Shown here: piece after piece, positions 10,430 to 55,282 of the stretch
Layout of the letters: the number at the start of each line of letters is the position of its first letter
Position numbering within the stretch: position 1 is the stretch's first letter
From: Giardia intestinalis
Taxonomy: Eukaryota
Length of the DNA: 64,000 nucleotides
Strand: one strand, 5' to 3'
Assembly: GCA_000002435.2 (NCBI GenBank)
Contig: CM018790.1
The notes under the pieces: model-generated
The model's input: the letters and a program-made list of their open reading frames with translations, nothing else
Told to the model about the DNA's origin: nothing
Database searches by the model: none
Program-made: the position numbers and the translations under genes

Positions 10430-11689
10430 ATGTTTGCTAAGCTTATCTTCACAAGCCTCGTTCTGCAGCTGGCAGAGGCGACACGGCCAGCGGTCAAAGA
10501 GCAATCCGGCGCCTGCACCTCTCCAGAGAACGCCGGGTGTGCCGCGTGCAACCCGAATAACGGAGATGAGCTCTGCCTCTCGTGCACAAACGCGCAGGAG
10601 TTCATCCAGCTCAACAAGAAGGGGTGCACGGCCGCCTGCGCCGGGGATGGAGTGATTGGAGACGCTGCTGTCGACCCGAAGGTCTGCAAGTGTGACGGAG
10701 ACAATGGCTACACGCTCCAGGGCGACGCGTGCGTCAAGAGACAGGCCAACGAGTGCCAGACAGAGAACTGCCAGGAATGCACTGGCAAAGGCACAGCCAA
10801 CGAGGTCTGTACAAAGTGTACTTCTACTCATTACTTGACACCAACAAACCAGTGCGTACCTGACTGCACAGTTATCAAGGGCTACTACGGAGATACTAAC
10901 GAAGGGAAGTGTAAGCCATGTAGCCCTGAGTGCGCTGAGTGCGTTGGGCCGGCCAACAATCAGTGCAGTGCCTGTCCTGCTGGCAAGAAACTGACATATA
11001 CAGATGACAGCTATCCTAATAACGGAGGCGCCTGCGGGGATGCGTGCAAAGTGTCTGCAGACGGCGCTGGCTGTGAGACATGCGGGGCTCAGATAGGAGG
11101 AACTGCATACTGCTCAAAGTGCAAGACCTCCACTCAGGCCCCCTTGAACGGCGACTGTGCGGCCAATACGCGAACACAATTTTGCACTACAGTGAGCAAT
11201 GGAGTGTGCACTCAATGCGCTGCTAACTACTTCCTCAAGGACGGCGGCTGCTATCAAACAGATAGACAGCCTGGTAAACAAGTGTGTAGTAGTGCACAGG
11301 GAGGAACATGTACAAAATGTGCCAACGGACTACAGGTACAAAGTGGAGCCTGTGGAAACTGTCATTCTACTTGTGCTACGTGCAGTGCTCCCAGTATTGC
11401 AAGCTCGTGTAAGACCTGTGCCACTGGGTATTACAAGGAAAACGGTGACGATACCACTGATGGGTTATGCAAGAAGTGCTCAGAGAAGATCTCTGGATGC
11501 AAGCAATGTGTGTCATCATCTGGCAGTTCAGTCATATGTTTAGAATCAGAAGTAGGCACTGGTGGAAGCGTCAACAAGAGCGGTCTCTCCACTGGCGCCA
11601 TAGCGGGCATTGCTGTGGCTGCTGTTATTGTCATTGGTGGTCTCGTCGGCTTCCTCTGCTGGTGGTTCCTCTGCCGCGGGAAGGCGTAG
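10430..11689 (+). CDS. Variant-specific surface protein (VSP), solitary copy
   Basis: Signal peptide [17 protein letters not shown], about 10% Cys in CXXC pairs, GGCY motif (KDGGCYQTD), a C-terminal transmembrane helix and the invariant CRGKA* tail ([13 protein letters not shown]). AGTAAAT polyA motif 21 nt after the stop. The ORF-track start at 10328 is GTG. Confidence 0.88.
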   Translation: [419 protein letters not shown]

Positions 11690-11709
11690 ATTTAGCTGTG
11701 TACTTAGGT

Positions 11710-11716
11710 AGTAAAT
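11710..11716 (+). terminator. AGTRAAY-type polyadenylation signal (agtaaat) downstream of the VSP stop
   Basis: Matches the Giardia polyA motif AGTPuAAPy. It lies 21 nt after the TAG at 11687-11689. Confidence 0.4.
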
Positions 11717-37083: not shown

Positions 37084-37326
37084 GAAGGGGCCAATTAATT
37101 TTTGGCCATTTACTCTGCTTCACCGAGGCTGGTTTGCCAGCTGCTATCCGAGCAAGTCTCACGCGAACTACCACTCCAAGCAAAGCCCAAGATCCAGAAT
37201 CTGAAAGTCGGATTCCATCCAGCTCTGGTGAGAAAAGAAGACTTTATTTTCATCTCCCTAGGAGCTGTTGCTATTCCTCCCAGCGCCTTCTAAGACTTCC
37301 TCTTCCTCCGACCAGTTATGGGCAGC
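37084..37326. repeat. Left flank of the inverted repeat, containing the motif gatccagaatctgaaa shared with 53781-53800 and 54886-54900
   Basis: Direct sequence comparison: gatccagaatctgaaagtcggattcc (37191) vs gagatccagaatccgaaatcagaagg (54886), and the reverse complement at 53781-53800. Confidence 0.5.
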
Positions 37327-40300
37327 CAGGACTCAGTTCGCCTCTGCCAGCCAAGCACCCCAAGTCCTATTTCTTGTCGAGGGATTCACATGGGTCACGT
37401 GTGGGTCCGTCTGGACAGGCGGGGCGAGTGATTAGTGCCATCACTGGCTTCAAGCTCTCCGTTGCTCTGGGAGCTCCTTGAGACCGGCCAGGAAGGAGGC
37501 CTCCTGCCCCTCAGTGCTCTTACACCCAATGTTGACCGTCGAGCATAGCGCTTCGCTAGGTCTGTCGCCTCTGTGACTACCCTGTCGCGTCACTGTCATC
37601 GGCATGGGCAGTGAGTGGAGTATCTCCTTCAGCTCCTGGTGAGCAGGTTCTGTACCACGCAGTATGGGGGCATGCGCAGGGCCCCGAGGGACCGAGTCCA
37701 GGAGTGCAGCGCGTCCCAGCCGGAGGAAGGCCTCGACGCAGCTCCTCGGGACGGGGCACACTTGCCTGGGAGAGGCCGTCTGCTGTTGGGGCTCTCGTTA
37801 TGTCGAGCGAGGCCGCCGTGCCCATCAGCTTGTGTCTCCCTGTGCCATGCGAACACCACCCATGTGCAATCGGTGGAACGCAGTCTGCTCTGTCTCGAGG
37901 AAGGCCAGTGTCTGGGTCTCCAGGGGGCTCGGGACTGCCTTGTGGAGCGCATCATGATCGTCCCCTGATCGTGGTTGTCCTGTCTCGTTCTTGGGAAGAG
38001 GGCAGAACAAAAGTTCTTCTCCCGTCGGAGTCGCTTGGCACTTGAGTTCGAACTTTGGGTTTTGATCTTGGCCAATGCAGGGATGAGGGAGACCTGCTTC
38101 CCCAGAGCGGCGGTGGCTTGCATGGGAAGATCACTCAGATAGCAGGTGACAGCCCCACCCCGGCTAAAAAACTTGAGGCAGCCGTCGCGCCCGCCGCCCC
38201 CAGGACAGAGATTCTGCGTGCATGGCCAGCTGCCCTTGTCAGTTCGGTCTACTGGTCCGGTAGTCTGAGGACCTTCTGCGCCGCTTCTGATGTATGATGC
38301 ATCGCAACTGCTTATAGGGGTAAGCAGCATGAAAAGGCAATTGCATGTGTGGACATTGTACTATGACCGTCTCAGAGGGCCGAAGTCTCCAACTACAGAG
38401 CGCTGCACCGAGCAACACGCCCCACTGCCCTGCGCCGGTGGCTGCCTCCACCACCGTCTTCGTTGCACTTGGGCTGTGCCTGCCCAGCAGACTGAGCAGA
38501 GATTACAGAAGCTTCTCTAATAATGCACACACGCCGCATAAGGTCTGATGATGGAATGGACACCACCTGTCTGAGCTGTCTGCTATTGACGAGAGACAGC
38601 CCTTGGTTGCACTAGAGTGCTTTTGTTTAAGCATAAGGTCTTCGCACCTACTCCCCCATCAGCTATAGCGATAGCTGTATATCCAGAAGGGTCCTGCAGA
38701 GCGTTCCACCGTCTTTCAAGGTAAGGCATGGGCTCCATACCTATAGCTAAAAACAGAAATCCGTGCACCAAGTGTCACGAGTCTAGTATACTGACCGACC
38801 TGAATCGCAGTGCACTTGTCAAGGACCTGTGCACACGTTTGGATGCTCACTGCTAGTGGTAGACGGGCTTGTAAGGAAAATTGCTTCTGGTCGCGCTTGC
38901 CTTATAGTGTTTGATCCTGGGTGGCATGCCTCAGCAAAGGAAGATGCTATTTATATGCATAGAAGGCTATCCATGCACAGTGATTCCTGGAAAGCCGGTT
39001 CGCACGGAGAGGGTAGAGGCCATCAGCAAACCAGTGAGATACACCTGACGCTAGAGAGGCCAGCTACCGGCTCAGATTGCAGTGGTGACACTTGTAGTGC
39101 CCCTCTGACTTCTAAGCATGGAAACGTCACGGGGTCTGTGGGCAAACCGGACGCTCTTTTTGATTTTATACGTTTGTAGCAACGTAGTATTTATTGGGGT
39201 CTGCTTCGTCTGGAGTCGAGGAGGCTCGCTTTCTCTCCACATACAGATTAAGATCGATTGTAGGGGTATACTGTGCAGATCAGTACCAGTCAGTGTGGTC
39301 TCTGTCCACAGGTACCTCACTTGCGTCTTCCCGTGGCAGACATTCACCAACAACACCTCCGGCCTGTGTGGTGTTCTACAGTGTACCTTCACCTTCGACC
39401 AAGGGGCTGGTACACACGTTACGTAATTTAGATTGCTCATCAGTCAGGGTGGTATGGTCCGCTCTTGTTCTCCACTTGCATATCTCGTATAACCTGCTGA
39501 TAGCCTTTCCAGATTAGTATGCAGATGCTTCTATCGGTCCTGTAAGGCATGCGTCATGTAGGTAACCATTACAGGCCAGAGTCCTGTCTGCTAAGGAAAA
39601 GAACCACCAGTTTACCATGTGGACATCCGTTGTGCTCTCCAGTATCTCCTCGCCAGCCGCCATCTAGTTCTCCCTGCCGTTTGGAGCCCGTATGTATATT
39701 GTTACTGACAAGCACTTGGTTTCAATGGGCCCCTGGGACGTTAAGCACTTTACCCTGTGCAGTGGGTATGTTCAATGTGGGAGATACACAATCAGCATTG
39801 ACTTTCTCACTCATTGTTTGTGTAATTATTGTTGCTTCTTAGTCTAATTAGCAACCCAGATCATGGCCTCCAGTGTAGTGGTATTCTACCAACAGACAGC
39901 TGGCAGTGACTGTGGCACGTACTTTCATCAAGACACAGCCACCTGAGCAGGGGTATGAAATGGGTCCTTGTTATTCTACGATTCTGCTAATTCCTCAGAT
40001 AGCAGGGATCAGAGCAGCTTATTGTTAGTATTGACTATCTCCGTGTCTCCATTTATCTTCGTCGCTTGAGATACGCTTGACTCCAAAGACTCGAAAAGGT
40101 GCTATACTGTGCTCAGATCTGCGAGTCTCAATTAAGTAAGGCTACCATCTCGGTGGCTGCGCTGAGGTAGCTACACACCTTGTGGGCTCTGCAAGGTGCA
40201 TTACAGCCCAATGGAACCCTTACCTATCGAATGCAGGCCGCAATGCAGCCTCGCTGGTGCACGATTTCTTAAGATGACTGATCAATCCGCAGAGTCCACC

Positions 40301-41916
40301 CTACTCATGTAGAGCCAGCGATAGATGACGATATCAACCCTGTAGATAATCTACACTGTACATCAGTGGTCCTATAGGTAAGTAAGGGTCAGCCATCCCG
40401 CAGTAATGAGCATTAGCGGTGTCTTTCCCAAGAATAAATGGGCGAGTTGTCAGCAGTCACAACATCCGCTTTCTCAATGAAGACCGCCCTGCCACTGAGG
40501 CCCAGGCCAGTCTCCTATAAGATCCTTGACAAGATTGTATCCAAGATGTATATCTATGGTGCTCCCCGACTCAAGGTGTATGCTGCTGAACCTCCCATTT
40601 CTCGTATCAGCTTATGAATATCGATGTCCCTGCCTCTAGCAGAATTGTATTAGAAATAATATGAGATATGGCGCCTTCAGTCGGGTTGTTCGGATTCCCA
40701 GCTGCACAACGGGGGCCCACTTTCGTATTGTGCATCAGAAAGACATGTCATGCCGTAATGATGCAACCTTTCGTATGGTATAATTCTTGCGTCAAGAGAT
40801 AGGGCACTTGTATCGATCGGCATATCTACCCATGGCCAGTTATAGCTTGGACCAAAGGTCACAAACGAACGCTATCTAACTCCCTTATCAACAGACGGGA
40901 GATCTGACCATCCTTCTGCCTCACACAAAGCCACAAAGGATTCTAGATCAGGATTTCGGCCAGTAGCTGGCAAGTCATTATACTCTCCTGGATTTCTGCT
41001 CCCTCTACTATAGGTATCCACATGTAGGAAGCTCTGAGGGCCTAAAGTCCTACACCAATAGGCTCAGGGTACTGCAAACCCAGGTGTTTTCACTAGTGGT
41101 GGTAGTGATGGTCTCAAGATGATCCAGAAGGGATGACAGGAGTCCTGGTCAATCAACTTAGAAGGTGGCACGGCTTGGTCAGTGATTCTCCTTGTCCAGA
41201 TGCGGGACTGCTTGTCTGCGCCTTCTAAGCTTCACATGGCATCCCGTCATGCGATAGGATATCTTAATAATATTCATTAAAAAAGGCCAGAAATGACACA
41301 CTGTACATCCAACAGACTGCTGCACCTTATTATCTAATCTTTGCCGGTTCACACCTTCCACAAACCCCAGTGGTTGCTGCGATCTTCTCTTAGGATCTCG
41401 TAGGGGTCTTTCATTAAGGGAGGCTCCCCTGTGACGACCAGAGGTCGCAGACATAATCCAAAGGGATGCGAATGCTACGGAGGCGGAGAGAAGGTCATCG
41501 GCGCACGGGGGTCCGCAGGGGCCCGACCCGTCCAGGGAAAGCACAGGGAGCTGGCTTATCAGAGACGCAAAGACGCCAGGAGAAAAGCCAGCAACGAACC
41601 CACGGCACAGTGGAGGCACTCGAGCCGTCCTTTGATTGGCCGCAGGGCAGAGAGGCGGCAAGCGTGTGGAGAGGTCTCACCACTTATTTTTGGATTTTCT
41701 GTTTCCCTGCGTGTTGTGCAGGGAGCATGGGGTTCAGACCCAGGGAGCTCGCGTGGGCTGTATGCAGTAGATGTGCTTAGTATTCGATGAGCTTCTATGC
41801 CCTAAGCAGAGGTATCGTAGAAGACGAATCTCTTTGGATTAATTAGCATAGTGTAGTCAGGTCTTTAGTCTTAAGTATCTTATTCTTACTTATACGACAA
41901 GCTGAGAAGGACCTCA

Positions 41917-43803
41917 ATGTTGCTGGTAGTTTTCTACTTTGTGCTGAGTGCTCTTGCGGGAGCATGTACTGTTGAGGCTAACACACGAGATTGTACAGAG
42001 AATAAGTGCGAAATGGTTGGCGAAACAGAAATCTGTACACAATGCAAGACGGGCGGAAATGTTCCCATTGATGGAGTGTGTAAGGCGGTTGCTGAGGCCG
42101 CCAATAAGTGTACGAAGAGCGATGACAATCCGGTAGGCGCAGGAGATACGACTTGTGGAAAATGCGTAAACGCATACTTCATGTACAAAGGCGGATGTTA
42201 TCTGGCCGGTGCAGCTGGACCGGGTACTGGTACTAAAATGTGCAAGCAGGCTGCTGGTGGCAAGTGTACGCAAGCTGCTGATGCGAAGAACTACTTCATT
42301 CCACCAGCAAATACAGACGATACTCATGATTCTGTCGTTTGGTGCGGTGATGAAATAGGCGTAACACTTAGTAGTACTCAGTATAAGGGTGTTGCTAAGT
42401 GCCTAGTATGTGATGCTCCCGGTGGGGCTGGTGCTGCAACGTGCACAACCTGTGAAGACGGGTACTTTGGTGCTACTTGTAAAAAATGCCATGAAAGTTG
42501 TAGGACATGTGAAGCTGCAGAAGAGAATAAGTGCAAGTCGTGTACAGATGGCTACTTCCTTGGAGCAACCAATGGAGCCGCAGGTAAGTGCCTTAAGTGT
42601 AACTCTAAAACAGAGGAAGGCTGGCACGGAGTTGACAACTGTGCTAAGTGCACGTCATCTAATACGCAAAACACCCCTGCGACATGCACTGAATGCGTTG
42701 CAAATTTCTATCTAAAACCAGCCGCGGGTGCAACTCCTTCTAGTTGCGTCACAGAAACGGGGTGCGGTGACGGATACTTCCCAACTATTGTTGATGAGAT
42801 CAAGAAATGTATCGCTTGCGGTACAGCTGCAAATGGTGGCATAGATGACTGCAAAAAGTGTTCTCTCAAAACAACGTCTGCGAAGGCAGGAATAGAGATC
42901 GTATGCACTGAATGTAATACTAAATGGCTCAGTCCTCTAGGAGACGCATGTTTGGATAGCTGTCCTCCTGGAACACATGCTGATTCTGGCAATATTTGTC
43001 CTTTATGTCATAGCACATGTGCAGAGTGTGATGGCAATGCAGAAGCCACATCGTGCAGAGCATGTTATCCCGGATTTGTGCTGAGTTATGGCAGCGATAA
43101 AGTCAGAGGCACATGTATTCAAGAATGTACCGGCAAATACGCAGAAAATTGTGAAGAAAATATGTGTACGGCTGTCCTTGGAGGCTCCAAGTATTGTAGC
43201 AAGTGTAAGGCCGGATTCGTTCCAATAGATGGTGTCTGTGTATCGACAGCTTCACGAGCAGTAACCGGATGTACGCCAGGAAATGGAGTATGCATTGCAT
43301 GTACAGACTCATACTTCTTACAGTCTGGAGGATGCTATCAGTCGACAGTGTTTCCTGGTAATAAGCTGTGTACACTAGCTAGTAATGGAAAGTGTACAGC
43401 ATGCTCCAACGGGCAAACAGCAGATGGTCAAGGTTCGTGCCCAGCGTGTAATGCCATCTGTGCAACATGTGCGGCAGGAAATATAGACCAATGCCAAACT
43501 TGCTTCCCTGGATACTATAAATCCGGAACTAAGTGCGTAAAATGTAGCATTACTGACAACGGAATAACTGGTGTAGAGAACTGCATAAGCTGTGCCCCTC
43601 CAGCTGGTAATAGTGGTCCTGTCACTTGCTATATGAAGACAGATGACACTAACGATGGTGGTAACGACAACAACGGCGGAAGCACGAACAAGAGCGGGCT
43701 CTCCACAGGGGCCATCGCGGGGATCTCCGTGGCTGTGATTGTTGTTGTAGGTGGTCTCATAGGCTTCTTGTGTTGGTGGTTCATATGTAGAGGGAAGGCG
43801 TAA
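41917..43803 (+). CDS. Variant-specific surface protein (VSP), copy A of an identical inverted pair
   Basis: 628 aa: signal peptide [16 protein letters not shown], dozens of CXXC motifs, GGCY motifs ([18 protein letters not shown]), a transmembrane helix and the CRGKA* tail. AGTAAAC polyA motif at 43811-43817. Confidence 0.9.
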   Translation: [628 protein letters not shown]

Positions 43804-43810
43804 CTTAGGT

Positions 43811-43817
43811 AGTAAAC
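43811..43817 (+). terminator. AGTRAAY polyadenylation signal (agtaaac) of VSP copy A; its mirror for copy B is at 46537-46543 on the minus strand
   Basis: Motif lies 8 nt after the TAA stop. Confidence 0.4.
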
Positions 43818-44322
43818 GCGTTACTTTATGTAACCTATGTAGATGTGCTGCTGGGGCTATCTGAGCGCGGTCCAGAGATCGTGTGGGTAATCATCGCTCC
43901 TTCCTGACCAGTCCAGAGACGATGGCTGGTTGTGAATAATATAACGAGAGAATCCTCTCCAGTGATACCTCCAGAGCCTGGTGCATTCCTCAATCATTTC
44001 GTGGGCGTGTGCTCAGACCGAATGCGTACATCGGTCCTTTAGGGGTTCAGGCCCTCTTGCAGACTCTCTGATCCGCCGGCGCCTCTCCTTGGTCTGCCGC
44101 CTTGGTGGATGAGGCTTGGGTCGCTGTCTTTTTTAGATGCCCCCATCTGTCAGAGGGCTGCCCTCGGGCTCTCTTCTGGCCGCCCCTCGGTGTCCGTCCG
44201 GCTGTGGCCCGGGCAGTGCTTCTACAGTCGCGGTCACTTGGGTATCAGCGGGCCAGCTGGTGGGCGAGGCGGGGTTGGTGAGGCTGGAGGGGACTGGTGG
44301 GGGCTGAGGTGGGCGGTGTTGT

Positions 44323-46031
44323 ATGCGCCCCTGACCTCTTGGTGAGTGGGGTGATCGCAGCTGTTATGACTGGGGGCTGTCCATCTGTGACTCATCCCTC
44401 TGTGTGCTCGTGGTCTGTGAGTGCCTCCACCCAGACAACCCTCAGGAGCCGGAGAGTGGTGCCAGCCTAGCTGTCCTCCCTCCTCGGTGCCTCCCAGTGC
44501 AGACTCACCGGAGGCCACTACCCTGTCAGCCACCCGAAGGAGCCGTGCACGCCGGGACAGAGAGAGTGACCAAGGGGAGTCAAGCAGCCCTGCCATGAGA
44601 GTGCACAGCAACCAGCCTGGACTGTATGGGCTGCTCGAACAGTGGTAGTGGCAGACGACTCCCTCTGACAGCAGCCCTGATGACGGCACTGGCCTGCTCT
44701 TGAGACTGAATGACAGTGAACACAGACGGACATGAGCGCAGGAGGACCATCCACACACGAACAGACTGTGTGGACCCAGAGAGGACTAGGGTCTGCTCAG
44801 ACACACGCTGACTGTGCCCCATACGAGAGTACCAGGCAACCACCCGAGCACCCGAGAGGCAGGTACAGCCACGGGCACTAGAGATCCCCAGCCAGACACA
44901 TTGCCATGCTCATCCACAGGGGCATCAGAGGGCCAGGTGGGGTCACTCTCACAATCAGGGGCCTGATAGGAAGCCAGAGGACCCGAGCAGCACAGCACAG
45001 CAGGCCCAAGGGAGGCACACTCCAGGCAGGTGAGCAGTGGCAGAGCCTTGACAGCTGCCAGCCCCCCATGACACCCAGGCAGGCACCAGACTCCGAAGAC
45101 TCGCTGGCCTCCACCTATGACCCGAGAGGGCAGCAACCAGAGGAGCGAGGAGGCCTTCGGATGACACAAGAGGCCGGCTGTCCAGCGGGCGATGGAGCAC
45201 AGGTGGCCTCTGAGCACCATAAGGCACAGGACTGACCATCAGAGTGATGCCCGGTCACAGAGACGACCACGAGCACCCTCCACCCACTCTGAGGGGCTGT
45301 CGATCATTCACTGCCTCTCATAGCAGACCTCCTTAAGGGCAGTGCAGTGGGTCCCAGCTCATGCAGGAGGGTGCACACCCCTCAGTATAGGACACCCCGA
45401 CTCTCCCCGAGGGGTCATCAGAGCCATGAGAGGTGTCAAGGTCCTGATAGATCACACCGGGAACCCCTCGAATGGGCACAGCAGGTGAGGTATGGGTGAC
45501 CCCAGCGTGCTCCTCTCTGCATGGTAGAGCATCCTGAGACCAAGGGGGTCACCTCTGCCTACGGATAATACACAGCACTCCATGACAAGGACCCACCAGG
45601 AGCAGCACAGCTGACCACGGGGACAGTGCAGTCACCAGTGCCCCACCGTGCCAGTCTTCTGGGCCATCACACTAGAGGCACGAGAGAACCCCATCCCATC
45701 CACCGGCTCATCTATGCCCCTGCTGGCCCGAGGTGAACTAACCTTGTCGAGGCACTGGACAGGGCATGCCAGGGGGCCCAGCAGACCCGCACAGAGCAAC
45801 AGGAGGGGCTGCGATGGCCTGCCTCACCCTTCACGCACCAGCCAGACAGAGCAGCAGTACTGCCTGAGACATGCAGGGGCTAAGGGAGGCGCTCAGTCGG
45901 GGGACACGACACGATCGTCGGTGCCTCTGTCTCGGGAGTGCAACGCAGGCTGGTGATCAGACACAACCACCTTAGCAAACAGAGCGGGGATCACCCACCA
46001 CCGCAATGACCCACCGGACCCAGGGGCGCAT
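44323..46031. other. Unique 1.7 kb spacer at the centre of the inverted repeat; GC-rich and strongly T-poor on the plus strand
   Basis: ORFs in this interval have no mirror partners. Composition is dominated by C, A and G runs (e.g. cacagacggacatgagcgcaggaggaccatccacacacgaacagac). Overlapping junk ORFs lie on both strands. Confidence 0.7.
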
Positions 46032-49000
46032 ACAACACCGCCCACCTCAGCCCCCACCAGTCCCCTCCAGCCTCACCAACCCCGCCTCGCCCACCAGCTG
46101 GCCCGCTGATACCCAAGTGACCGCGACTGTAGAAGCACTGCCCGGGCCACAGCCGGACGGACACCGAGGGGCGGCCAGAAGAGAGCCCGAGGGCAGCCCT
46201 CTGACAGATGGGGGCATCTAAAAAAGACAGCGACCCAAGCCTCATCCACCAAGGCGGCAGACCAAGGAGAGGCGCCGGCGGATCAGAGAGTCTGCAAGAG
46301 GGCCTGAACCCCTAAAGGACCGATGTACGCATTCGGTCTGAGCACACGCCCACGAAATGATTGAGGAATGCACCAGGCTCTGGAGGTATCACTGGAGAGG
46401 ATTCTCTCGTTATATTATTCACAACCAGCCATCGTCTCTGGACTGGTCAGGAAGGAGCGATGATTACCCACACGATCTCTGGACCGCGCTCAGATAGCCC
46501 CAGCAGCACATCTACATAGGTTACATAAAGTAACGCGTTTACTACCTAAGTTACGCCTTCCCTCTACATATGAACCACCAACACAAGAAGCCTATGAGAC
46601 CACCTACAACAACAATCACAGCCACGGAGATCCCCGCGATGGCCCCTGTGGAGAGCCCGCTCTTGTTCGTGCTTCCGCCGTTGTTGTCGTTACCACCATC
46701 GTTAGTGTCATCTGTCTTCATATAGCAAGTGACAGGACCACTATTACCAGCTGGAGGGGCACAGCTTATGCAGTTCTCTACACCAGTTATTCCGTTGTCA
46801 GTAATGCTACATTTTACGCACTTAGTTCCGGATTTATAGTATCCAGGGAAGCAAGTTTGGCATTGGTCTATATTTCCTGCCGCACATGTTGCACAGATGG
46901 CATTACACGCTGGGCACGAACCTTGACCATCTGCTGTTTGCCCGTTGGAGCATGCTGTACACTTTCCATTACTAGCTAGTGTACACAGCTTATTACCAGG
47001 AAACACTGTCGACTGATAGCATCCTCCAGACTGTAAGAAGTATGAGTCTGTACATGCAATGCATACTCCATTTCCTGGCGTACATCCGGTTACTGCTCGT
47101 GAAGCTGTCGATACACAGACACCATCTATTGGAACGAATCCGGCCTTACACTTGCTACAATACTTGGAGCCTCCAAGGACAGCCGTACACATATTTTCTT
47201 CACAATTTTCTGCGTATTTGCCGGTACATTCTTGAATACATGTGCCTCTGACTTTATCGCTGCCATAACTCAGCACAAATCCGGGATAACATGCTCTGCA
47301 CGATGTGGCTTCTGCATTGCCATCACACTCTGCACATGTGCTATGACATAAAGGACAAATATTGCCAGAATCAGCATGTGTTCCAGGAGGACAGCTATCC
47401 AAACATGCGTCTCCTAGAGGACTGAGCCATTTAGTATTACATTCAGTGCATACGATCTCTATTCCTGCCTTCGCAGACGTTGTTTTGAGAGAACACTTTT
47501 TGCAGTCATCTATGCCACCATTTGCAGCTGTACCGCAAGCGATACATTTCTTGATCTCATCAACAATAGTTGGGAAGTATCCGTCACCGCACCCCGTTTC
47601 TGTGACGCAACTAGAAGGAGTTGCACCCGCGGCTGGTTTTAGATAGAAATTTGCAACGCATTCAGTGCATGTCGCAGGGGTGTTTTGCGTATTAGATGAC
47701 GTGCACTTAGCACAGTTGTCAACTCCGTGCCAGCCTTCCTCTGTTTTAGAGTTACACTTAAGGCACTTACCTGCGGCTCCATTGGTTGCTCCAAGGAAGT
47801 AGCCATCTGTACACGACTTGCACTTATTCTCTTCTGCAGCTTCACATGTCCTACAACTTTCATGGCATTTTTTACAAGTAGCACCAAAGTACCCGTCTTC
47901 ACAGGTTGTGCACGTTGCAGCACCAGCCCCACCGGGAGCATCACATACTAGGCACTTAGCAACACCCTTATACTGAGTACTACTAAGTGTTACGCCTATT
48001 TCATCACCGCACCAAACGACAGAATCATGAGTATCGTCTGTATTTGCTGGTGGAATGAAGTAGTTCTTCGCATCAGCAGCTTGCGTACACTTGCCACCAG
48101 CAGCCTGCTTGCACATTTTAGTACCAGTACCCGGTCCAGCTGCACCGGCCAGATAACATCCGCCTTTGTACATGAAGTATGCGTTTACGCATTTTCCACA
48201 AGTCGTATCTCCTGCGCCTACCGGATTGTCATCGCTCTTCGTACACTTATTGGCGGCCTCAGCAACCGCCTTACACACTCCATCAATGGGAACATTTCCG
48301 CCCGTCTTGCATTGTGTACAGATTTCTGTTTCGCCAACCATTTCGCACTTATTCTCTGTACAATCTCGTGTGTTAGCCTCAACAGTACATGCTCCCGCAA
48401 GAGCACTCAGCACAAAGTAGAAAACTACCAGCAACATTGAGGTCCTTCTCAGCTTGTCGTATAAGTAAGAATAAGATACTTAAGACTAAAGACCTGACTA
48501 CACTATGCTAATTAATCCAAAGAGATTCGTCTTCTACGATACCTCTGCTTAGGGCATAGAAGCTCATCGAATACTAAGCACATCTACTGCATACAGCCCA
48601 CGCGAGCTCCCTGGGTCTGAACCCCATGCTCCCTGCACAACACGCAGGGAAACAGAAAATCCAAAAATAAGTGGTGAGACCTCTCCACACGCTTGCCGCC
48701 TCTCTGCCCTGCGGCCAATCAAAGGACGGCTCGAGTGCCTCCACTGTGCCGTGGGTTCGTTGCTGGCTTTTCTCCTGGCGTCTTTGCGTCTCTGATAAGC
48801 CAGCTCCCTGTGCTTTCCCTGGACGGGTCGGGCCCCTGCGGACCCCCGTGCGCCGATGACCTTCTCTCCGCCTCCGTAGCATTCGCATCCCTTTGGATTA
48901 TGTCTGCGACCTCTGGTCGTCACAGGGGAGCCTCCCTTAATGAAAGACCCCTACGAGATCCTAAGAGAAGATCGCAGCAACCACTGGGGTTTGTGGAAGG

Positions 49001-52000
49001 TGTGAACCGGCAAAGATTAGATAATAAGGTGCAGCAGTCTGTTGGATGTACAGTGTGTCATTTCTGGCCTTTTTTAATGAATATTATTAAGATATCCTAT
49101 CGCATGACGGGATGCCATGTGAAGCTTAGAAGGCGCAGACAAGCAGTCCCGCATCTGGACAAGGAGAATCACTGACCAAGCCGTGCCACCTTCTAAGTTG
49201 ATTGACCAGGACTCCTGTCATCCCTTCTGGATCATCTTGAGACCATCACTACCACCACTAGTGAAAACACCTGGGTTTGCAGTACCCTGAGCCTATTGGT
49301 GTAGGACTTTAGGCCCTCAGAGCTTCCTACATGTGGATACCTATAGTAGAGGGAGCAGAAATCCAGGAGAGTATAATGACTTGCCAGCTACTGGCCGAAA
49401 TCCTGATCTAGAATCCTTTGTGGCTTTGTGTGAGGCAGAAGGATGGTCAGATCTCCCGTCTGTTGATAAGGGAGTTAGATAGCGTTCGTTTGTGACCTTT
49501 GGTCCAAGCTATAACTGGCCATGGGTAGATATGCCGATCGATACAAGTGCCCTATCTCTTGACGCAAGAATTATACCATACGAAAGGTTGCATCATTACG
49601 GCATGACATGTCTTTCTGATGCACAATACGAAAGTGGGCCCCCGTTGTGCAGCTGGGAATCCGAACAACCCGACTGAAGGCGCCATATCTCATATTATTT
49701 CTAATACAATTCTGCTAGAGGCAGGGACATCGATATTCATAAGCTGATACGAGAAATGGGAGGTTCAGCAGCATACACCTTGAGTCGGGGAGCACCATAG
49801 ATATACATCTTGGATACAATCTTGTCAAGGATCTTATAGGAGACTGGCCTGGGCCTCAGTGGCAGGGCGGTCTTCATTGAGAAAGCGGATGTTGTGACTG
49901 CTGACAACTCGCCCATTTATTCTTGGGAAAGACACCGCTAATGCTCATTACTGCGGGATGGCTGACCCTTACTTACCTATAGGACCACTGATGTACAGTG
50001 TAGATTATCTACAGGGTTGATATCGTCATCTATCGCTGGCTCTACATGAGTAGGGTGGACTCTGCGGATTGATCAGTCATCTTAAGAAATCGTGCACCAG
50101 CGAGGCTGCATTGCGGCCTGCATTCGATAGGTAAGGGTTCCATTGGGCTGTAATGCACCTTGCAGAGCCCACAAGGTGTGTAGCTACCTCAGCGCAGCCA
50201 CCGAGATGGTAGCCTTACTTAATTGAGACTCGCAGATCTGAGCACAGTATAGCACCTTTTCGAGTCTTTGGAGTCAAGCGTATCTCAAGCGACGAAGATA
50301 AATGGAGACACGGAGATAGTCAATACTAACAATAAGCTGCTCTGATCCCTGCTATCTGAGGAATTAGCAGAATCGTAGAATAACAAGGACCCATTTCATA
50401 CCCCTGCTCAGGTGGCTGTGTCTTGATGAAAGTACGTGCCACAGTCACTGCCAGCTGTCTGTTGGTAGAATACCACTACACTGGAGGCCATGATCTGGGT
50501 TGCTAATTAGACTAAGAAGCAACAATAATTACACAAACAATGAGTGAGAAAGTCAATGCTGATTGTGTATCTCCCACATTGAACATACCCACTGCACAGG
50601 GTAAAGTGCTTAACGTCCCAGGGGCCCATTGAAACCAAGTGCTTGTCAGTAACAATATACATACGGGCTCCAAACGGCAGGGAGAACTAGATGGCGGCTG
50701 GCGAGGAGATACTGGAGAGCACAACGGATGTCCACATGGTAAACTGGTGGTTCTTTTCCTTAGCAGACAGGACTCTGGCCTGTAATGGTTACCTACATGA
50801 CGCATGCCTTACAGGACCGATAGAAGCATCTGCATACTAATCTGGAAAGGCTATCAGCAGGTTATACGAGATATGCAAGTGGAGAACAAGAGCGGACCAT
50901 ACCACCCTGACTGATGAGCAATCTAAATTACGTAACGTGTGTACCAGCCCCTTGGTCGAAGGTGAAGGTACACTGTAGAACACCACACAGGCCGGAGGTG
51001 TTGTTGGTGAATGTCTGCCACGGGAAGACGCAAGTGAGGTACCTGTGGACAGAGACCACACTGACTGGTACTGATCTGCACAGTATACCCCTACAATCGA
51101 TCTTAATCTGTATGTGGAGAGAAAGCGAGCCTCCTCGACTCCAGACGAAGCAGACCCCAATAAATACTACGTTGCTACAAACGTATAAAATCAAAAAGAG
51201 CGTCCGGTTTGCCCACAGACCCCGTGACGTTTCCATGCTTAGAAGTCAGAGGGGCACTACAAGTGTCACCACTGCAATCTGAGCCGGTAGCTGGCCTCTC
51301 TAGCGTCAGGTGTATCTCACTGGTTTGCTGATGGCCTCTACCCTCTCCGTGCGAACCGGCTTTCCAGGAATCACTGTGCATGGATAGCCTTCTATGCATA
51401 TAAATAGCATCTTCCTTTGCTGAGGCATGCCACCCAGGATCAAACACTATAAGGCAAGCGCGACCAGAAGCAATTTTCCTTACAAGCCCGTCTACCACTA
51501 GCAGTGAGCATCCAAACGTGTGCACAGGTCCTTGACAAGTGCACTGCGATTCAGGTCGGTCAGTATACTAGACTCGTGACACTTGGTGCACGGATTTCTG
51601 TTTTTAGCTATAGGTATGGAGCCCATGCCTTACCTTGAAAGACGGTGGAACGCTCTGCAGGACCCTTCTGGATATACAGCTATCGCTATAGCTGATGGGG
51701 GAGTAGGTGCGAAGACCTTATGCTTAAACAAAAGCACTCTAGTGCAACCAAGGGCTGTCTCTCGTCAATAGCAGACAGCTCAGACAGGTGGTGTCCATTC
51801 CATCATCAGACCTTATGCGGCGTGTGTGCATTATTAGAGAAGCTTCTGTAATCTCTGCTCAGTCTGCTGGGCAGGCACAGCCCAAGTGCAACGAAGACGG
51901 TGGTGGAGGCAGCCACCGGCGCAGGGCAGTGGGGCGTGTTGCTCGGTGCAGCGCTCTGTAGTTGGAGACTTCGGCCCTCTGAGACGGTCATAGTACAATG

Positions 52001-53027
52001 TCCACACATGCAATTGCCTTTTCATGCTGCTTACCCCTATAAGCAGTTGCGATGCATCATACATCAGAAGCGGCGCAGAAGGTCCTCAGACTACCGGACC
52101 AGTAGACCGAACTGACAAGGGCAGCTGGCCATGCACGCAGAATCTCTGTCCTGGGGGCGGCGGGCGCGACGGCTGCCTCAAGTTTTTTAGCCGGGGTGGG
52201 GCTGTCACCTGCTATCTGAGTGATCTTCCCATGCAAGCTACCGCCGCTCTGGGGAAGCAGGTCTCCCTCATCCCTGCATTGGCCAAGATCAAAACCCAAA
52301 GTTCGAACTCAAGTGCCAAGCGACTCCGACGGGAGAAGAACTTTTGTTCTGCCCTCTTCCCAAGAACGAGACAGGACAACCACGATCAGGGGACGATCAT
52401 GATGCGCTCCACAAGGCAGTCCCGAGCCCCCTGGAGACCCAGACACTGGCCTTCCTCGAGACAGAGCAGACTGCGTTCCACCGATTGCACATGGGTGGTG
52501 TTCGCATGGCACAGGGAGACACAAGCTGATGGGTACAGCGGTCTTGCTCGACATAACGAGAGCCCCAACAGCAGACGGCCTCTCCCAGGCAAGTGTGCCC
52601 CGTCCCGAGGAGCTGCGTCGAGGCCTTCCTCCGGCTGGGACGCGCTGCACTCCTGGACTCGGTCCCTCGGGGCCCTGCGCATGCCCCCATACTGCGTGGT
52701 ACAGAACCTGCTCACCAGGAGCTGAAGGAGATACTCCACTCACTGCCCATGCCGATGACAGTGACGCGACAGGGTAGTCACAGAGGCGACAGACCTAGCG
52801 AAGCGCTATGCTCGACGGTCAACATTGGGTGTAAGAGCACTGAGGGGCAGGAGGCCTCCTTCCTGGCCGGTCTCAAGGAGCTCCCAGAGCAACGGAGAGC
52901 TTGAAGCCAGTGATGGCACTAATCACTCGCCCCGCCTGTCCAGACGGACCCACACGTGACCCATGTGAATCCCTCGACAAGAAATAGGACTTGGGGTGCT
53001 TGGCTGGCAGAGGCGGACTGATCCTAA
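46032..53027. repeat. Right arm (~7.0 kb) of the inverted repeat, reverse complement of 37327-44322 at about 99.9% identity
   Basis: See left arm. The only differences seen are a roughly 20-bp hypervariable patch (left 37806-37823 / right 52531-52548) and two single substitutions near left 38105-38125. Confidence 0.92.
46551..48437 (-). CDS. Variant-specific surface protein (VSP), copy B, convergent with copy A
   Basis: Translated protein is identical to copy A, 628/628 aa. Confidence 0.9.
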   Translation of the reverse strand: [628 protein letters not shown]

Positions 53028-53832
53028 CCGCACCGAAGAGTGGAGGCCTGGACCACCTGCCGGGGGTCTGCCGCAGCAGCTGGCAGTGCCTGACACCCTC
53101 GAGTAGACGGGCGCCGGTTGTAGAGAGAGACGGCCTGACGGTGAACCGGTCCTGATCGCTCGTGATGCTTCGGATGACACCCTTCAGAGAGGTGGCCCTG
53201 GACCGACGCCTCAGCAGACCGAAGCATCACCCCAAGCGTGCTGTGCGGTGCAGATGGACCAGCTCATACGTCATTGAGCCAGACGCACTGCATAGAATGA
53301 TGCGCCGACACGATCTCGTACTGGGTGACTGGCCACCTGTAAGAGCGCACTGCGATCCATGAGCAGAGGGGTGGGCCTCCTCCCCCGACACCACCGCATG
53401 GGATTACTCCATCGGCATCCATGAACGCATACTATGACTCCAAGACAGAGGCGCAGGGGGAGCACACCCTTGATAATGGAACAGATGGTGCCCTCCACGA
53501 GGAGGCGAAGAGGCACCCGAGGAACGGGGCAGGCACCCGGGGTCGTGGCGTGGGATCTTCGTCATGGAGCACCAGCACCAGGGCCACGTGGAGGCCAGAT
53601 CGCCGCGACAGACGCAAGACCTGAGATAGCAGGTGCTCAATAGATGTCAGACGATGGTTGACCCCGACGGGCCAGAGGAAGGAAAGTCCTAGGGGGCACC
53701 GCGAGGAGCGGCAGGGACTCCCGAGAGGCAGAGCAAAGTTCCTTCTTCTTCTCCCATCGGAATCGCTACATCCGATCTCAGATTTCGGATTCTGGATCTC
53801 AACCGATGCAGGGACGGGAGGTACTTGTTTGT

Positions 53833-54591
53833 TCAGGGCGGCGACTCGCACGGGGGATTTACTTGGACAGCAACTAGCAAACTAATCTCAGTGAAACAGG
53901 GTAAACATTGTGATATGATCAGCAAGTAGGCGAGTTCACTCACAAGTTTCCTAGGCTGCATCTGTAAGTATGGATCTACAATACCCTCACTCTCGAGAAA
54001 AGATGCTACCTCGGAGTGATTCCATCTATTGGCCGTACGGATGGCATGTACGCCACCTATGTCCTTCTCCTTCTCCAGTAGCAACTTGACACACTCCAGA
54101 TGATCATGCCCTGCTGCAAGCACGAGGGCAGTAAAACCTCTGCCTTTCTGCATGCCTCCCTCAGCATCCAGGAGTAGTCTCACGACCTCGGTGCGGCCAA
54201 AATGTGCCGCCCACATGAGGGCTGTCCATCCATTACTGCTCCTCATACCGCTCTCGCACCTCATCAGCAGCTTCACCACTCTGGTGTGTCCGAGCACCGC
54301 AGCAACCATCAGGGCCGTCCCCCCACTTATGTCTTTCCTCCCTGCCTTGACAAGCTTCGCCACCATCCTTGCCTGATAAGGGATGTAGCGCTTCACCGCC
54401 TTCACGTCGTTTCGGTTGGCTGCCTTCATAAGCGTGGTGACCCCGTTCTCGTCCACGCTGCCTTCATCATCCATTTCTGAAGGCTCAGTTGGGTTTCCTG
54501 CGCCCTCTTCGCTCGTGTCCCTTTCGGGCATGAGGGGTGGGGCGCAGTCGCACTCCTGAAGGAGTTGACCTAAATCATCCGCAGACGACAT
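53833..54591 (-). CDS. Ankyrin-repeat protein (21.1-like), short and possibly 3'-truncated
   Basis: Five ankyrin units (GVTTLMKAANRNDVKAVKRYI, GGTALMVAAVLGHTRVVKLLM, GWTALMWAAHFGRTEVVRLLL, GFTALVLAAGHDHLECVKLLL). The last ~35 aa (…ISQCLPCFTEISLLVAVQVNPPCESPP) are non-ankyrin and run into the dispersed repeat fragment at 53781-53800. ATG at 54591. Confidence 0.6.
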   Translation of the reverse strand: MSSADDLGQLLQECDCAPPLMPERDTSEEGAGNPTEPSEMDDEGSVDENGVTTLMKAANRNDVKAVKRYIPYQARMVAKLVKAGRKDISGGTALMVAAVLGHTRVVKLLMRCESGMRSSNGWTALMWAAHFGRTEVVRLLLDAEGGMQKGRGFTALVLAAGHDHLECVKLLLEKEKDIGGVHAIRTANRWNHSEVASFLESEGIVDPYLQMQPRKLVSELAYLLIISQCLPCFTEISLLVAVQVNPPCESPP

Positions 54592-54994
54592 TTTTACTGC
54601 GGGTCACATAGAGCTCGTGTGTCAGTACGCCTGCAATTCCTGGGCCTCTTGCAGCGCATCCAGATGGCGCATCATACAAAGACTGCACCCCTTGAATTCC
54701 TTCCGTCGCCCCTGCTATGTGTAGCAAGGTGCAATGGAGTGACCTTCGGCCGTGGCGTCAGGCACGCTGTGAACAGAAGAGTTCATTCTGCTTCCTCTGG
54801 TTGGTTTGTCAGCTGTTGCCTGAACAGGTCCTCCATGCGAGCCGCCGCCGCCCCAGGCTGGCAGTCTCTCGCTCGCTCACCAGCCGAGATCCAGAATCCG
54901 AAATCAGAAGGTCAGATATCGTCCAGTTCTGACGGGGAAGATCTGTGCCTCCTCCCCGAGGCGGTAGCGAGTACAGATGAGCGTTCGAGGCTGG

Positions 54995-55153
54995 TAATGG
55001 CACTAATCACTCGCCACGCTGGTCGAGATGGACCCACACGTGACCCATATGAATCCCTCGACAAGAGATGGGGCCCCTGGGGTGTCTGGCTGGCAGAGGC
55101 GGACTGATCCTGACCGCACTGAAGAGTGGTGGCGGCCTGGGCCACCTACCGGG
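54995..55153. repeat. Third, partial copy (~85% identity) of the inverted-repeat arm terminus, similar to 52908-53064 and to the reverse complement of the left arm end 37327-37490
   Basis: ctggtaatggcactaatcactcgccacgctggtcgagatggacccacacgtgacccatatgaatccctcgacaagag...tggctggcagaggcggactgatcctgaccgcactgaagagtgg aligns with 52908-53064. It is preceded by the gagatccagaatccg motif at 54886. Confidence 0.7.
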
Positions 55154-55282
55154 CATCTATATTGGTGAAACAGGGTAAGTTCTCTTCGCTGAACACCAAA
55201 TATAAGACCCATGCGCAGTGTTCCTCAAAGCGAACAAGGTTTGCTGGCATCAAGAAGAATATCGTCATGAGTAATATGCAGT

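What the first reader, a model, noticed from the sequence alone, without database searches (positions are those of the whole stretch)
54886..55153. Dispersed copies of the inverted-repeat terminus mark a recombination-prone junction family
The outer ~160 bp of the repeat arm recurs at 54995-55153 at about 85% identity, with a further 30 bp of shared sequence extending beyond the inverted-repeat boundary. A short motif, gagatccagaatccgaaatc, occurs three times: 37191 (plus), 53781-53800 (minus) and 54886 (plus). Each copy lies just 5' of a minus-strand gene start or at an arm boundary (IFT172 start 37080, ankyrin start 54591, inverted-repeat end 53027). This looks like repeated use of one breakpoint sequence during successive duplication and inversion events. 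It could also be a small non-autonomous mobile or promoter-associated element.
Basis: seen in the sequence. Interest (0 to 1): 0.55.

Follow-up and report, generated by a model that had tools for sequence, protein, structure and literature searches.

The report
Old repeat scars beside Giardia VSP palindrome
The flagged stretch holds two worn fragments of an old non-coding repeat family that sits at the edges of rearranged blocks in a Giardia surface-antigen/ankyrin/kinase gene island; this is real but an ordinary kind of repeat-associated rearrangement scar.

Summary
The window is Giardia WB. The 7-kb inverted repeat is the published tail-to-tail VSP pair GL50803_00d11521/11521.

**Observation: partly confirmed.**
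- The 160-180 bp copy (B', 54979-55158) matches the right arm end (52895-53069) at 83-86%. The match runs 44 bp past the arm boundary.
- The 20-mer is exact only twice. The copy near 37190 has four mismatches ungapped.

**What the 20-mer is.**

**What B is.** It is an internal piece of a ~1.5-kb non-coding unit, U (A-ext-Y-B-X). Eight contigs from other Giardia assemblies carry parts of U next to ankyrin, NEK kinase or VSP-upstream sequence, in different combinations.

**How the arms end.**
- Each palindrome arm ends inside a U copy.
- Perfect identity stops at a 628-bp indel.
- Beyond it the two sides still align at about 62%.
- All six arm mismatches lie in the outer 783 bp.

**The flagged interval.** B' plus A'' is a gutted third U copy. 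It sits at a separate breakpoint where a related genome has an intact kinase gene.

**Verdict.** The best reading is recombination or gene conversion between old dispersed repeats. I found no sign of one reused breakpoint, a promoter element or a mobile element. Interest is low to moderate.

The parts
54979..55158 (+). B': a 180-bp fragment of unit U, homologous to 52895-53069
   Evidence: 82.8-85.6% identity. 88% to the L007 and L016 copies. nhmmer E = 4e-59. Its 5' end falls in the middle of the most conserved block of U.
54779..54970 (+). A'': short-form copy of the ~190-bp A repeat; holds the exact 20-mer at 54886-54905
   Evidence: Leave-one-out nhmmer E = 2e-20. Alignments. About 90% identical to its counterpart in L016.
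54809..55003 (-). Relic of the last ~57 codons of a NEK-type kinase ORF; only 54809-54992 is homologous to the kinase, and the ORF's 5' end lies in B'
   Evidence: L016 has an intact 349-aa Pkinase ORF ending ...NAHLHSLLPWGNHKALICQNWTISDLLISDSGSRLVNERETASLGRRLAWRTCSDNS*. The window ORF ends ...NAHLYSLPPRGGGTDLPRQNWTISDLLISDSGSRLVSERETASLGRRRLAWRTCSGNS*. Homology to L016 stops at 54992.
53833..54591 (-). Ankyrin repeat protein 1 gene (252 aa); its last ~24 codons come from A'
   Evidence: Pfam Ank_2 E = 2e-49. P0005 is 100% identical and named Ankyrin repeat protein 1. Most paralogues end ...KLVSERA* at 221-223 aa.
53654..53908 (-). A' plus ext: long-form A copy; holds the exact 20-mer at 53781-53800
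   Evidence: nhmmer E = 5e-61; leave-one-out E = 3e-25. Same unit in L016, L009, L008, L017 and L018.
53026..53653 (+). 628-bp segment (end of B plus Y) present right of the right arm and absent from the left side
   Evidence: Uninterrupted in L007, L009 and L016. The left flank aligns to rc(53654-53905) directly after the arm end.
52351..53069 (+). X and B parts of unit U in the right arm; the arm boundary at 53025 cuts through B
   Evidence: 82.6% to L007 over 962 bp and 87.2% to L016 over 2406 bp, both crossing 53025.
52178..52372 (+). A copy inside the right arm (short form)
   Evidence: Leave-one-out nhmmer E = 1e-10. L008 is 93-100% identical to its 5' half.
46021..53025 (-). Right arm of the VSP palindrome (VSP 46551-48437)
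   Evidence: Matches pair d11521/11521: 628 aa, 2747 bp apart (PMC7000408).
37328..44333 (+). Left arm of the VSP palindrome (VSP 41917-43803). Its outer end holds B (37319-37456, -), X and A (37984-38177, -)
   Evidence: Only 6 mismatches to the right arm, all in 37338-38115. The left junction is present in independent short-read contigs L010-L014.
37108..37329 (+). A-left plus ext: long-form A copy outside the left arm, next to the IFT172 start; holds the degenerate 20-mer near 37190
   Evidence: Leave-one-out nhmmer E = 8e-33. Aligns to rc(53654-53905) at 62% over 253 columns, score 46 against shuffles of 13.4 +/- 2.0.

Best explanation
**What the interval is.** 54886-55153 is not a discrete element. 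It spans the join between two old repeat fragments:
- the 3' half of A'', a copy of a ~190-bp non-coding repeat (A);
- B', a 180-bp internal piece of a ~1.5-kb non-coding unit (U).

Read on the minus strand on the right side, U runs A'-ext-Y-B-X. A further A copy, inverted, follows X. U and A recur in Giardia VSP/ankyrin/NEK islands.

**How the palindrome ends.** Both arms of the known VSP palindrome end inside a U copy. The two U copies are inverted relative to each other and anciently diverged. The near-perfect identity of the arms is a homogenised tract, made either by gene conversion between the arms or by a recombination-dependent duplication primed within U. That tract stops at a 628-bp indel inside U.

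**What B' plus A'' is.** It is a third, heavily deleted U copy. It lies at an independent breakpoint joined through about 10-14 nt of imperfect microhomology. A related genome still has an intact NEK kinase gene at that position.

**Shown:**
- the repeats, their coordinates and their significance;
- the different neighbours of these units in other genomes;
- the position of the arm boundary inside U;
- the kinase relic.

**Inferred:**
- that recombination or gene conversion between U/A copies produced these arrangements;
- the direction of each event.
For: **A is a real family**
- Leave-one-out nhmmer E-values run from 1e-10 to 8e-33 for every copy. There are no other copies in the 64 kb.
- Copies are about 65% identical to one another. 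Each is about 90% identical to its counterpart in L016. The copies are therefore old and stably inherited.
- A similarity has sharp limits. Sequences flanking different copies show no similarity.

**U is a unit**
- The window matches L007 at 82.6% over 962 bp. It matches L016 at 87.2% over 2406 bp, and L009 also. All three cross position 53025 without a break.
- L009 and L016 come from the same sample and are only 63-74% alike. U is therefore multi-copy within one genome or sample.

**Blocks are shuffled at A and U ends**
- L008 reads P-A-ext-Y(rc). The window reads P-A-X-B-Y.
- L016 has a kinase next to A'', where the window has B'.
- L007 and L009 have an unrelated sequence in place of A before X.
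- L017 and L018 read VSP-ankyrin-NEK-A-ext-Y.
- P0006 shows a second ankyrin-A'-ext block on another WB chromosome-scale contig.

**The arm boundary**
- The left flank 37109-37329 aligns to rc(53654-53905) at 62% identity, z about 16.
- All 6 arm mismatches lie in the outer 783 bp; the inner 6.2 kb is identical.
- The left junction is present in many independent short-read assemblies.

**Literature**
- WB has 19-20 identical VSP pairs. Similar sequences flank different pairs (PMC7000408; bioRxiv 10.1101/2022.03.07.483299).
- Synteny breaks are enriched at VSP, Protein 21.1 and NEK genes (PMC3091692).
Against: - The whole Giardia genome could not be searched, so copy number and the link to other VSP pair ends are unknown.
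- The comparison contigs come from metagenome assemblies of unknown assemblage. I cannot tell orthologues from paralogues, and an assembly chimera at a repeat cannot be formally excluded for L008.
- A copies are now only about 65% identical, too diverged for present-day homologous recombination. Their role as substrates must date from earlier, or A may only mark fragile sites.
- The drop from 99.9% to 62% at the arm end would also fit a recent duplication that happened to land next to an older A copy.
Confidence: 0.55

Rival explanations
1. One specific breakpoint sequence, the arm terminus, has been reused in successive duplication and inversion events, leaving copies of the terminus at each junction.
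For: B' resembles the arm end. A copies alternate in orientation (+, -, +) around the ankyrin gene and the arm end.
Against: - The arm boundary (53025) lies inside a sequence that is continuous in L007, L009 and L016.
- The ends of B' correspond to 52895 and 53069, not 53025.
- The sequences next to different A copies are unrelated. A is therefore not the residue of nested larger duplications.
- A copies are about equally distant from one another at 65%, not a nested series.
Confidence: 0.08
2. U is a non-autonomous DNA transposon or foldback-type element of about 1.7 kb. A forms its ~190-bp terminal inverted repeats (52178-53908). Solo A copies and B' are decayed insertions. Alternatively, the segment between inverted A copies flips.
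For: - An A copy lies at each end of U in inverted orientation, on both sides of the palindrome.
- A has discrete limits.
- Relative to the window, L008 looks like an inversion of the segment between the two A copies.
- U occurs in several contexts.
Against: - No target-site duplications, and no short terminal repeats within A.
- L007 and L009 lack A at the X end.
- No transposase or RT remnant in six frames.
- The switch in L008 is not crisp. About 90 nt of it resembles neither A copy.
- The two 'terminal repeats' are only about 65% identical.
Confidence: 0.12
3. A recent simple inverted duplication (fold-back or template switch) of a 7-kb segment ended by chance inside B and landed next to an unrelated, pre-existing A copy near IFT172. 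U and A played no role.
For: - Identity changes abruptly from 99.9% to about 62% at the junction.
- The left junction shows little or no microhomology by eye (junction sequences).
Against: - All five A copies in 64 kb cluster at this locus.
- A-left plus ext has the orientation and position expected of the outer end of a U copy, which chance would rarely give.
- The mismatches between arms are confined to the outer 11% of the arm. That pattern fits a conversion gradient better than a single recent copy.
Confidence: 0.15
4. A and/or the B core is a functional cis element or non-coding RNA gene (promoter-associated, 3'-end signal, snoRNA or miRNA precursor) kept by selection.
For: - The 20-mer core is the best-conserved part of A.
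- B contains invariant runs of 17 nt and about 28 nt in four diverged copies.
Against: - No Rfam match, even at E <= 1.
- Almost no covariation: -1.06 and -1.44 kcal/mol covariation terms.
- Positions relative to genes are inconsistent.
- L017 and L018 have lost the 20-mer core.
- B' begins in the middle of the conserved block 52813-52972.
Confidence: 0.05

Closest known systems
Identical inverted VSP gene pairs of Giardia WB (Xu et al. 2020, PMC7000408; Rodriguez-Walker et al., bioRxiv 10.1101/2022.03.07.483299)
   Same: The palindrome here is one of them: 628-aa VSPs, tail-to-tail, 2747 bp apart, listed as chr 2 d11521/11521. Those papers already note that flanks of different pairs resemble each other and call them transposon relics.
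   Different: The passages I searched do not describe where the arms end, the U/A units, the diverged continuation beyond the arms, or the kinase relic.
Low-copy-repeat or dispersed-repeat mediated rearrangement and arm homogenisation (from my own knowledge: human Y-chromosome palindromes kept identical by arm-to-arm gene conversion; repeat-mediated amplification in Leishmania)
   Same: Diverged repeat copies sit at the edges of duplicated or inverted blocks. Arms are near-identical with sharp ends. Differences are confined to the arm edge.
   Different: No experimental evidence of conversion or of rearrangement frequency exists here. The repeat copies are far more diverged (about 65%) than typical substrates for homologous recombination.
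Synteny-break regions rich in VSP, Protein 21.1 (ankyrin) and NEK genes (Jerlstrom-Hultqvist et al. 2010, PMC3091692)
   Same: Same gene families and the same kind of block reshuffling between isolates.
   Different: That work described gene categories at breaks. It did not describe a specific non-coding repeat at the junctions.
Non-autonomous TIR elements (MITE-like)
   Same: Inverted A copies bracket a non-coding body of about 1.4 kb.
   Different: No target-site duplications, no sharp conserved termini, few copies seen, and some copies lack one end.

Membership tests
Duplicated inverted VSP pair of G. intestinalis WB | Two identical VSP genes in inverted orientation a few kb apart | tested here: met
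   628-aa VSP ORFs at 41917-43803 (+) and 46551-48437 (-), Pfam VSP E = 2e-91. Arms 99.9% identical. The 2747-bp spacing and 628-aa size match pair d11521/11521.
Dispersed repeat family (more than a local nested duplication) | Copies at independent loci with unrelated flanks | tested here: met
   A and U parts occur in L007, L008, L009, L016, L017 and L018 with different neighbours. P0006 lies on another WB chromosome-scale contig. Flanks of different A copies are unrelated. Genome-wide copy number was not obtainable.
TIR DNA transposon / MITE | Terminal inverted repeats with conserved termini | tested here: inconclusive
   Inverted A copies bracket U, but they are only about 65% identical, and L007 and L009 lack one of them. 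A itself has no internal inverted termini.
TIR DNA transposon / MITE | Target-site duplications flanking copies | tested here: not met
   The 20-nt flanks of the four window copies show no duplication. Boundaries are fuzzy, so this test is weak.
Non-LTR retrotransposon relic (GilM/GilT/GilD type) | Remnant reverse transcriptase or endonuclease coding sequence | tested here: not met
   Six-frame Pfam scan found nothing relevant at E <= 1 (plus-strand frames 48438-53880, minus-strand frames 48438-53832). GilD itself was not available for direct comparison.
Known structured RNA family | Match to an Rfam covariance model, or conserved structure with covariation | tested here: not met
   No Rfam hits at gathering score or at E <= 1. 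No tRNA. RNAalifold covariation terms were -1.06 (B) and -1.44 (A) kcal/mol.
Giardia core promoter element | Constant position within about 60 bp upstream of a start codon | tested here: not met
   A copies start about 25 bp (IFT172) and about 190 bp (ankyrin) upstream of an ATG, just 3' of the canonical ankyrin stop position (inside the extended ORF tail), and about 3.7 kb upstream of the VSP start.
Repeat-mediated recombination / gene-conversion tract boundary | Arm ends fall inside paralogous repeat copies, with identity decaying toward the edge | tested here: met
   Both arm ends lie inside U copies, and the outer parts align at 62%. All 6 mismatches lie in the outer 783 bp of 7001. The process itself is inferred, not observed.

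The most novel reading that the evidence does not exclude
U (52178-53908) is a previously unrecognised TIR-bounded, non-autonomous DNA element, or an invertible segment, of Giardia. Its ~190-bp inverted ends (A) are the sites at which VSP-containing blocks are duplicated, inverted and reshuffled. That would make it a DNA-level driver of VSP repertoire evolution in a genome where, to my knowledge, only non-LTR retrotransposons are established.
Probability: 0.1. Interest if true: 0.6.

Novelty: new member of a known kind. Interest (0 to 1): 0.3.

Why it matters
Identical inverted VSP pairs are a striking feature of the Giardia genome, and how they arise and stay identical is unsettled. Here the arms of one pair end inside diverged copies of a dispersed non-coding unit, and the same unit sits at other block junctions in ankyrin/NEK/VSP islands. 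That gives a concrete, testable candidate for the sequences that guide these rearrangements. The test is whether the other 18-19 pairs end in U copies. By itself this is an incremental, descriptive result about repeat scars. It is not a new mechanism.

Tried and rejected
- **Chance similarity:** rejected.
- **Assembly artefact:** the left junction is present in independent short-read contigs. The right side is collinear with L007, L009 and L016. Exact-protein look-ups meant to recover short-read contigs across the right junction found nothing.
- **Structured RNA or tRNA:** nothing.
- **Protein-coding or transposon relic:** no Pfam domain in six frames across about 5.4 kb from 48438. ORFs over A, B and X are not conserved between copies, and frames shift.
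- **A as a conserved flank of every ankyrin paralogue:** rejected. L015 has none. Of 57 homologues, only P0006 carries an A-encoded peptide.
- **Ancient palindromic similarity between X and ext-Y, as nested inverted duplications would leave:** none.
- **TIRs or TSDs of A:** none.
- **JGI metagenome scan for the B core:** 0 hits.
- **Fetching the WB paralogue locus via P0006:** not on record.
- **Homologue search with ORFs over A and B:** only one to three hits each. Protein-based recovery of further copies is therefore exhausted.

Full report
**Identity of the window**

ORFs at 41917-43803 (+) and 46551-48437 (-) are 628-aa Giardia VSPs (Pfam VSP, E = 2e-91). 53833-54591 (-) is an ankyrin protein. 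It is 100% identical to 'Ankyrin repeat protein 1 [Giardia duodenalis]'. The two VSPs lie tail-to-tail, 2747 bp apart. They sit inside a 7-kb inverted repeat, 37328-44333 / 46021-53025, 99.9% identical. Size, orientation and spacing match the published WB pair GL50803_00d11521/11521 on chromosome 2 (PMC7000408).

**The observation**

The copy of the arm end is real.
- 54979-55158 matches 52895-53069 at 83-86%. I call the two copies B' and B.
- On the right, the match continues 44 bp past the arm boundary. The left-arm mirror stops at the boundary.

The 20-mer is exact only at 53781-53800 (-) and 54886-54905 (+). The copy near 37190 has four mismatches ungapped.

**The A repeat**

The 20-mer is the core of a ~190-bp degenerate repeat, A. 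The window holds five copies:

| Copy | Coordinates | Strand |
|---|---|---|
| A-left | 37108-37300 | + |
| A in left arm | 37984-38177 | - |
| A in right arm | 52178-52372 | + |
| A' | 53747-53908 | - |
| A'' | 54779-54970 | + |

- These are shown.
- Copies are about 65% identical to each other.
- Leave-one-out profile searches recover every copy at E = 1e-10 to 8e-33. They find nothing else in the 64 kb.
- Three copies (A-left, A', and the one in L008) share a further ~90-bp extension, 'ext'.

**The larger unit U**

Homologue searches with spurious ORFs over these sequences, and with the ankyrin protein, led to eight contigs from other Giardia assemblies.
- L007 is 82.6% identical to 52602-53529.
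- L016 is 87.2% identical to 54992-52614.
- L009 runs from X to A'.
- All three run straight through 53025.

B is therefore an internal part of a ~1.5-kb non-coding unit. On the minus strand this unit reads A'-ext-Y-B-X. The arm boundary is not an element end.

Further points on U:
- Conservation among four copies peaks at 52599-52736 and 52813-52972. B' starts in the middle of the second block.
- L009 and L016 come from one sample yet are only 63-74% alike, so U is multi-copy.
- L017 and L018 show VSP tail, ankyrin, a 717-aa NEK, then A-ext-Y. There the 20-mer core is deleted.
- WB protein P0006 lies on the 4.0-Mb contig. It is an ankyrin paralogue that reads through an A'-ext copy to 300 aa.
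- All six metagenome contigs that carry U end inside it.
- WB short-read contigs coming from the 319-aa gene all stop inside B'. B' shares no exact run of 31 nt or longer with B by eye. This hints at more copies, which I could not test.

**Junction behaviour**

The blocks on either side of A differ between genomes.
- The window reads P-A-X-B-Y-ext(rc)-A'(rc)-ankyrin.
- L008 reads P-A-ext-Y(rc). Its A region is 93-100% like the arm copy for the first ~170 nt. It is then like neither copy for ~90 nt, then 83-93% like the A'/ext side. This is what an inversion between the inverted A copies would give, but the switch is not crisp.
- L007 and L009 have an unrelated sequence in place of A before X.
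- L016 has an intact 349-aa kinase ORF running into the counterpart of A''.
- The window keeps only the last ~57 codons of that ORF (54809-54992, minus strand). It then switches to B' across about 10-14 nt of imperfect microhomology.
- B' therefore sits at a separate breakpoint from the arm end.

**The arm boundary**

- Immediately outside the left arm, 37109-37329 aligns to the reverse complement of 53654-53905. Identity is 62% over 253 columns; the score is 46 against 13.4 +/- 2.0 for shuffles.
- The right side has an extra 628 bp (53026-53653), which is present in L007, L009 and L016.
- Both arms therefore end inside U copies. The outer parts of those copies are anciently diverged.
- The six differences between the arms all lie in the outer 783 bp: 37338, 37809-37820 and 38115. 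The inner 6.2 kb is identical.
- The left junction appears in many independent short-read assemblies.

**Interpretation**

The best-supported reading has three parts.
1. U and A are old dispersed repeats of VSP/ankyrin/NEK islands.
2. The near-identity of the arms is a homogenised tract between two inverted U-bearing flanks, and it stops at an indel.
3. B' plus A'' is a gutted third U copy at an unrelated deletion or rearrangement junction.

The mechanism is inferred, not shown. It would be gene conversion or recombination-dependent duplication between repeats, with microhomology joins.

This fits published statements. Flanks of different VSP pairs resemble each other (bioRxiv 10.1101/2022.03.07.483299). 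Synteny breaks cluster at VSP, Protein 21.1 and NEK genes (PMC3091692).

**Rivals**

- Reuse of one breakpoint does not fit the coordinates.
- A TIR transposon or invertible segment remains possible. It lacks target-site duplications and consistent ends and any transposase relic.
- A functional RNA or promoter element has no support.
- A recent duplication landing by chance next to an A copy is hard to reconcile with two facts. All A copies cluster at this locus. The arm mismatches show an edge gradient.

**Verdict**

This is a real but ordinary kind of feature: repeat scars at segmental rearrangement junctions next to a known VSP palindrome. The specific U/A anatomy was not described in the papers I read. 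It offers a testable hypothesis for where VSP pair arms end. Interest is 0.3.

Noticed in passing
window 43804-46550 (between the two VSP genes); unique centre of the palindrome 44334-46020: The 2747-bp gap between the VSP genes matches the published pair d11521/11521. In that published table, all 12 tail-to-tail pairs are 2526-2813 bp apart. Such uniform spacing suggests a shared palindrome centre. The centre here is 62% G+C, and its two ORFs have no Pfam match.
   Followed up: partly
window 37809-37820 / 52534-52545: Four transition differences between the arms lie within 12 bp. The arms are otherwise nearly identical. All six arm differences lie in the outer 783 bp.
   Followed up: partly
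window 55060-55168; loci L001-L006: Short-read contigs from many WB-like runs all stop inside or just outside B'. B' and the arm copy share no exact run of 31 nt or longer by eye. This suggests further, more similar copies elsewhere in the genome. It remains unexplained.
   Followed up: partly
window 53833-53905; protein P0006: The ankyrin ORF takes its last ~24 codons from repeat A' instead of ending ...SERA* like most paralogues. A paralogue on the 4.0-Mb WB contig reads on through A' and ext to 300 aa.
   Followed up: partly
L008:833-907 versus window approximately 52150-52230: A 75-nt stretch is 100% identical to the window, in a contig whose 950-bp match to the window averages 78%. This could be local conservation or a recent exchange.
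   Followed up: no
L016 (ERZ28528424 NODE_8242): This contig has about twice the assembly coverage (49x) of L015 (23x) and L009 (28x) from the same sample. In that genome the kinase-ankyrin-U block may itself be duplicated, so the repeat may extend further than in WB.
   Followed up: no
window 11561-11715: A third VSP 3' end lies here. It is 77% identical to the tails of the paired VSPs and 83% identical to the VSP tail at the start of L017. No A or B copy lies near it.
   Followed up: partly
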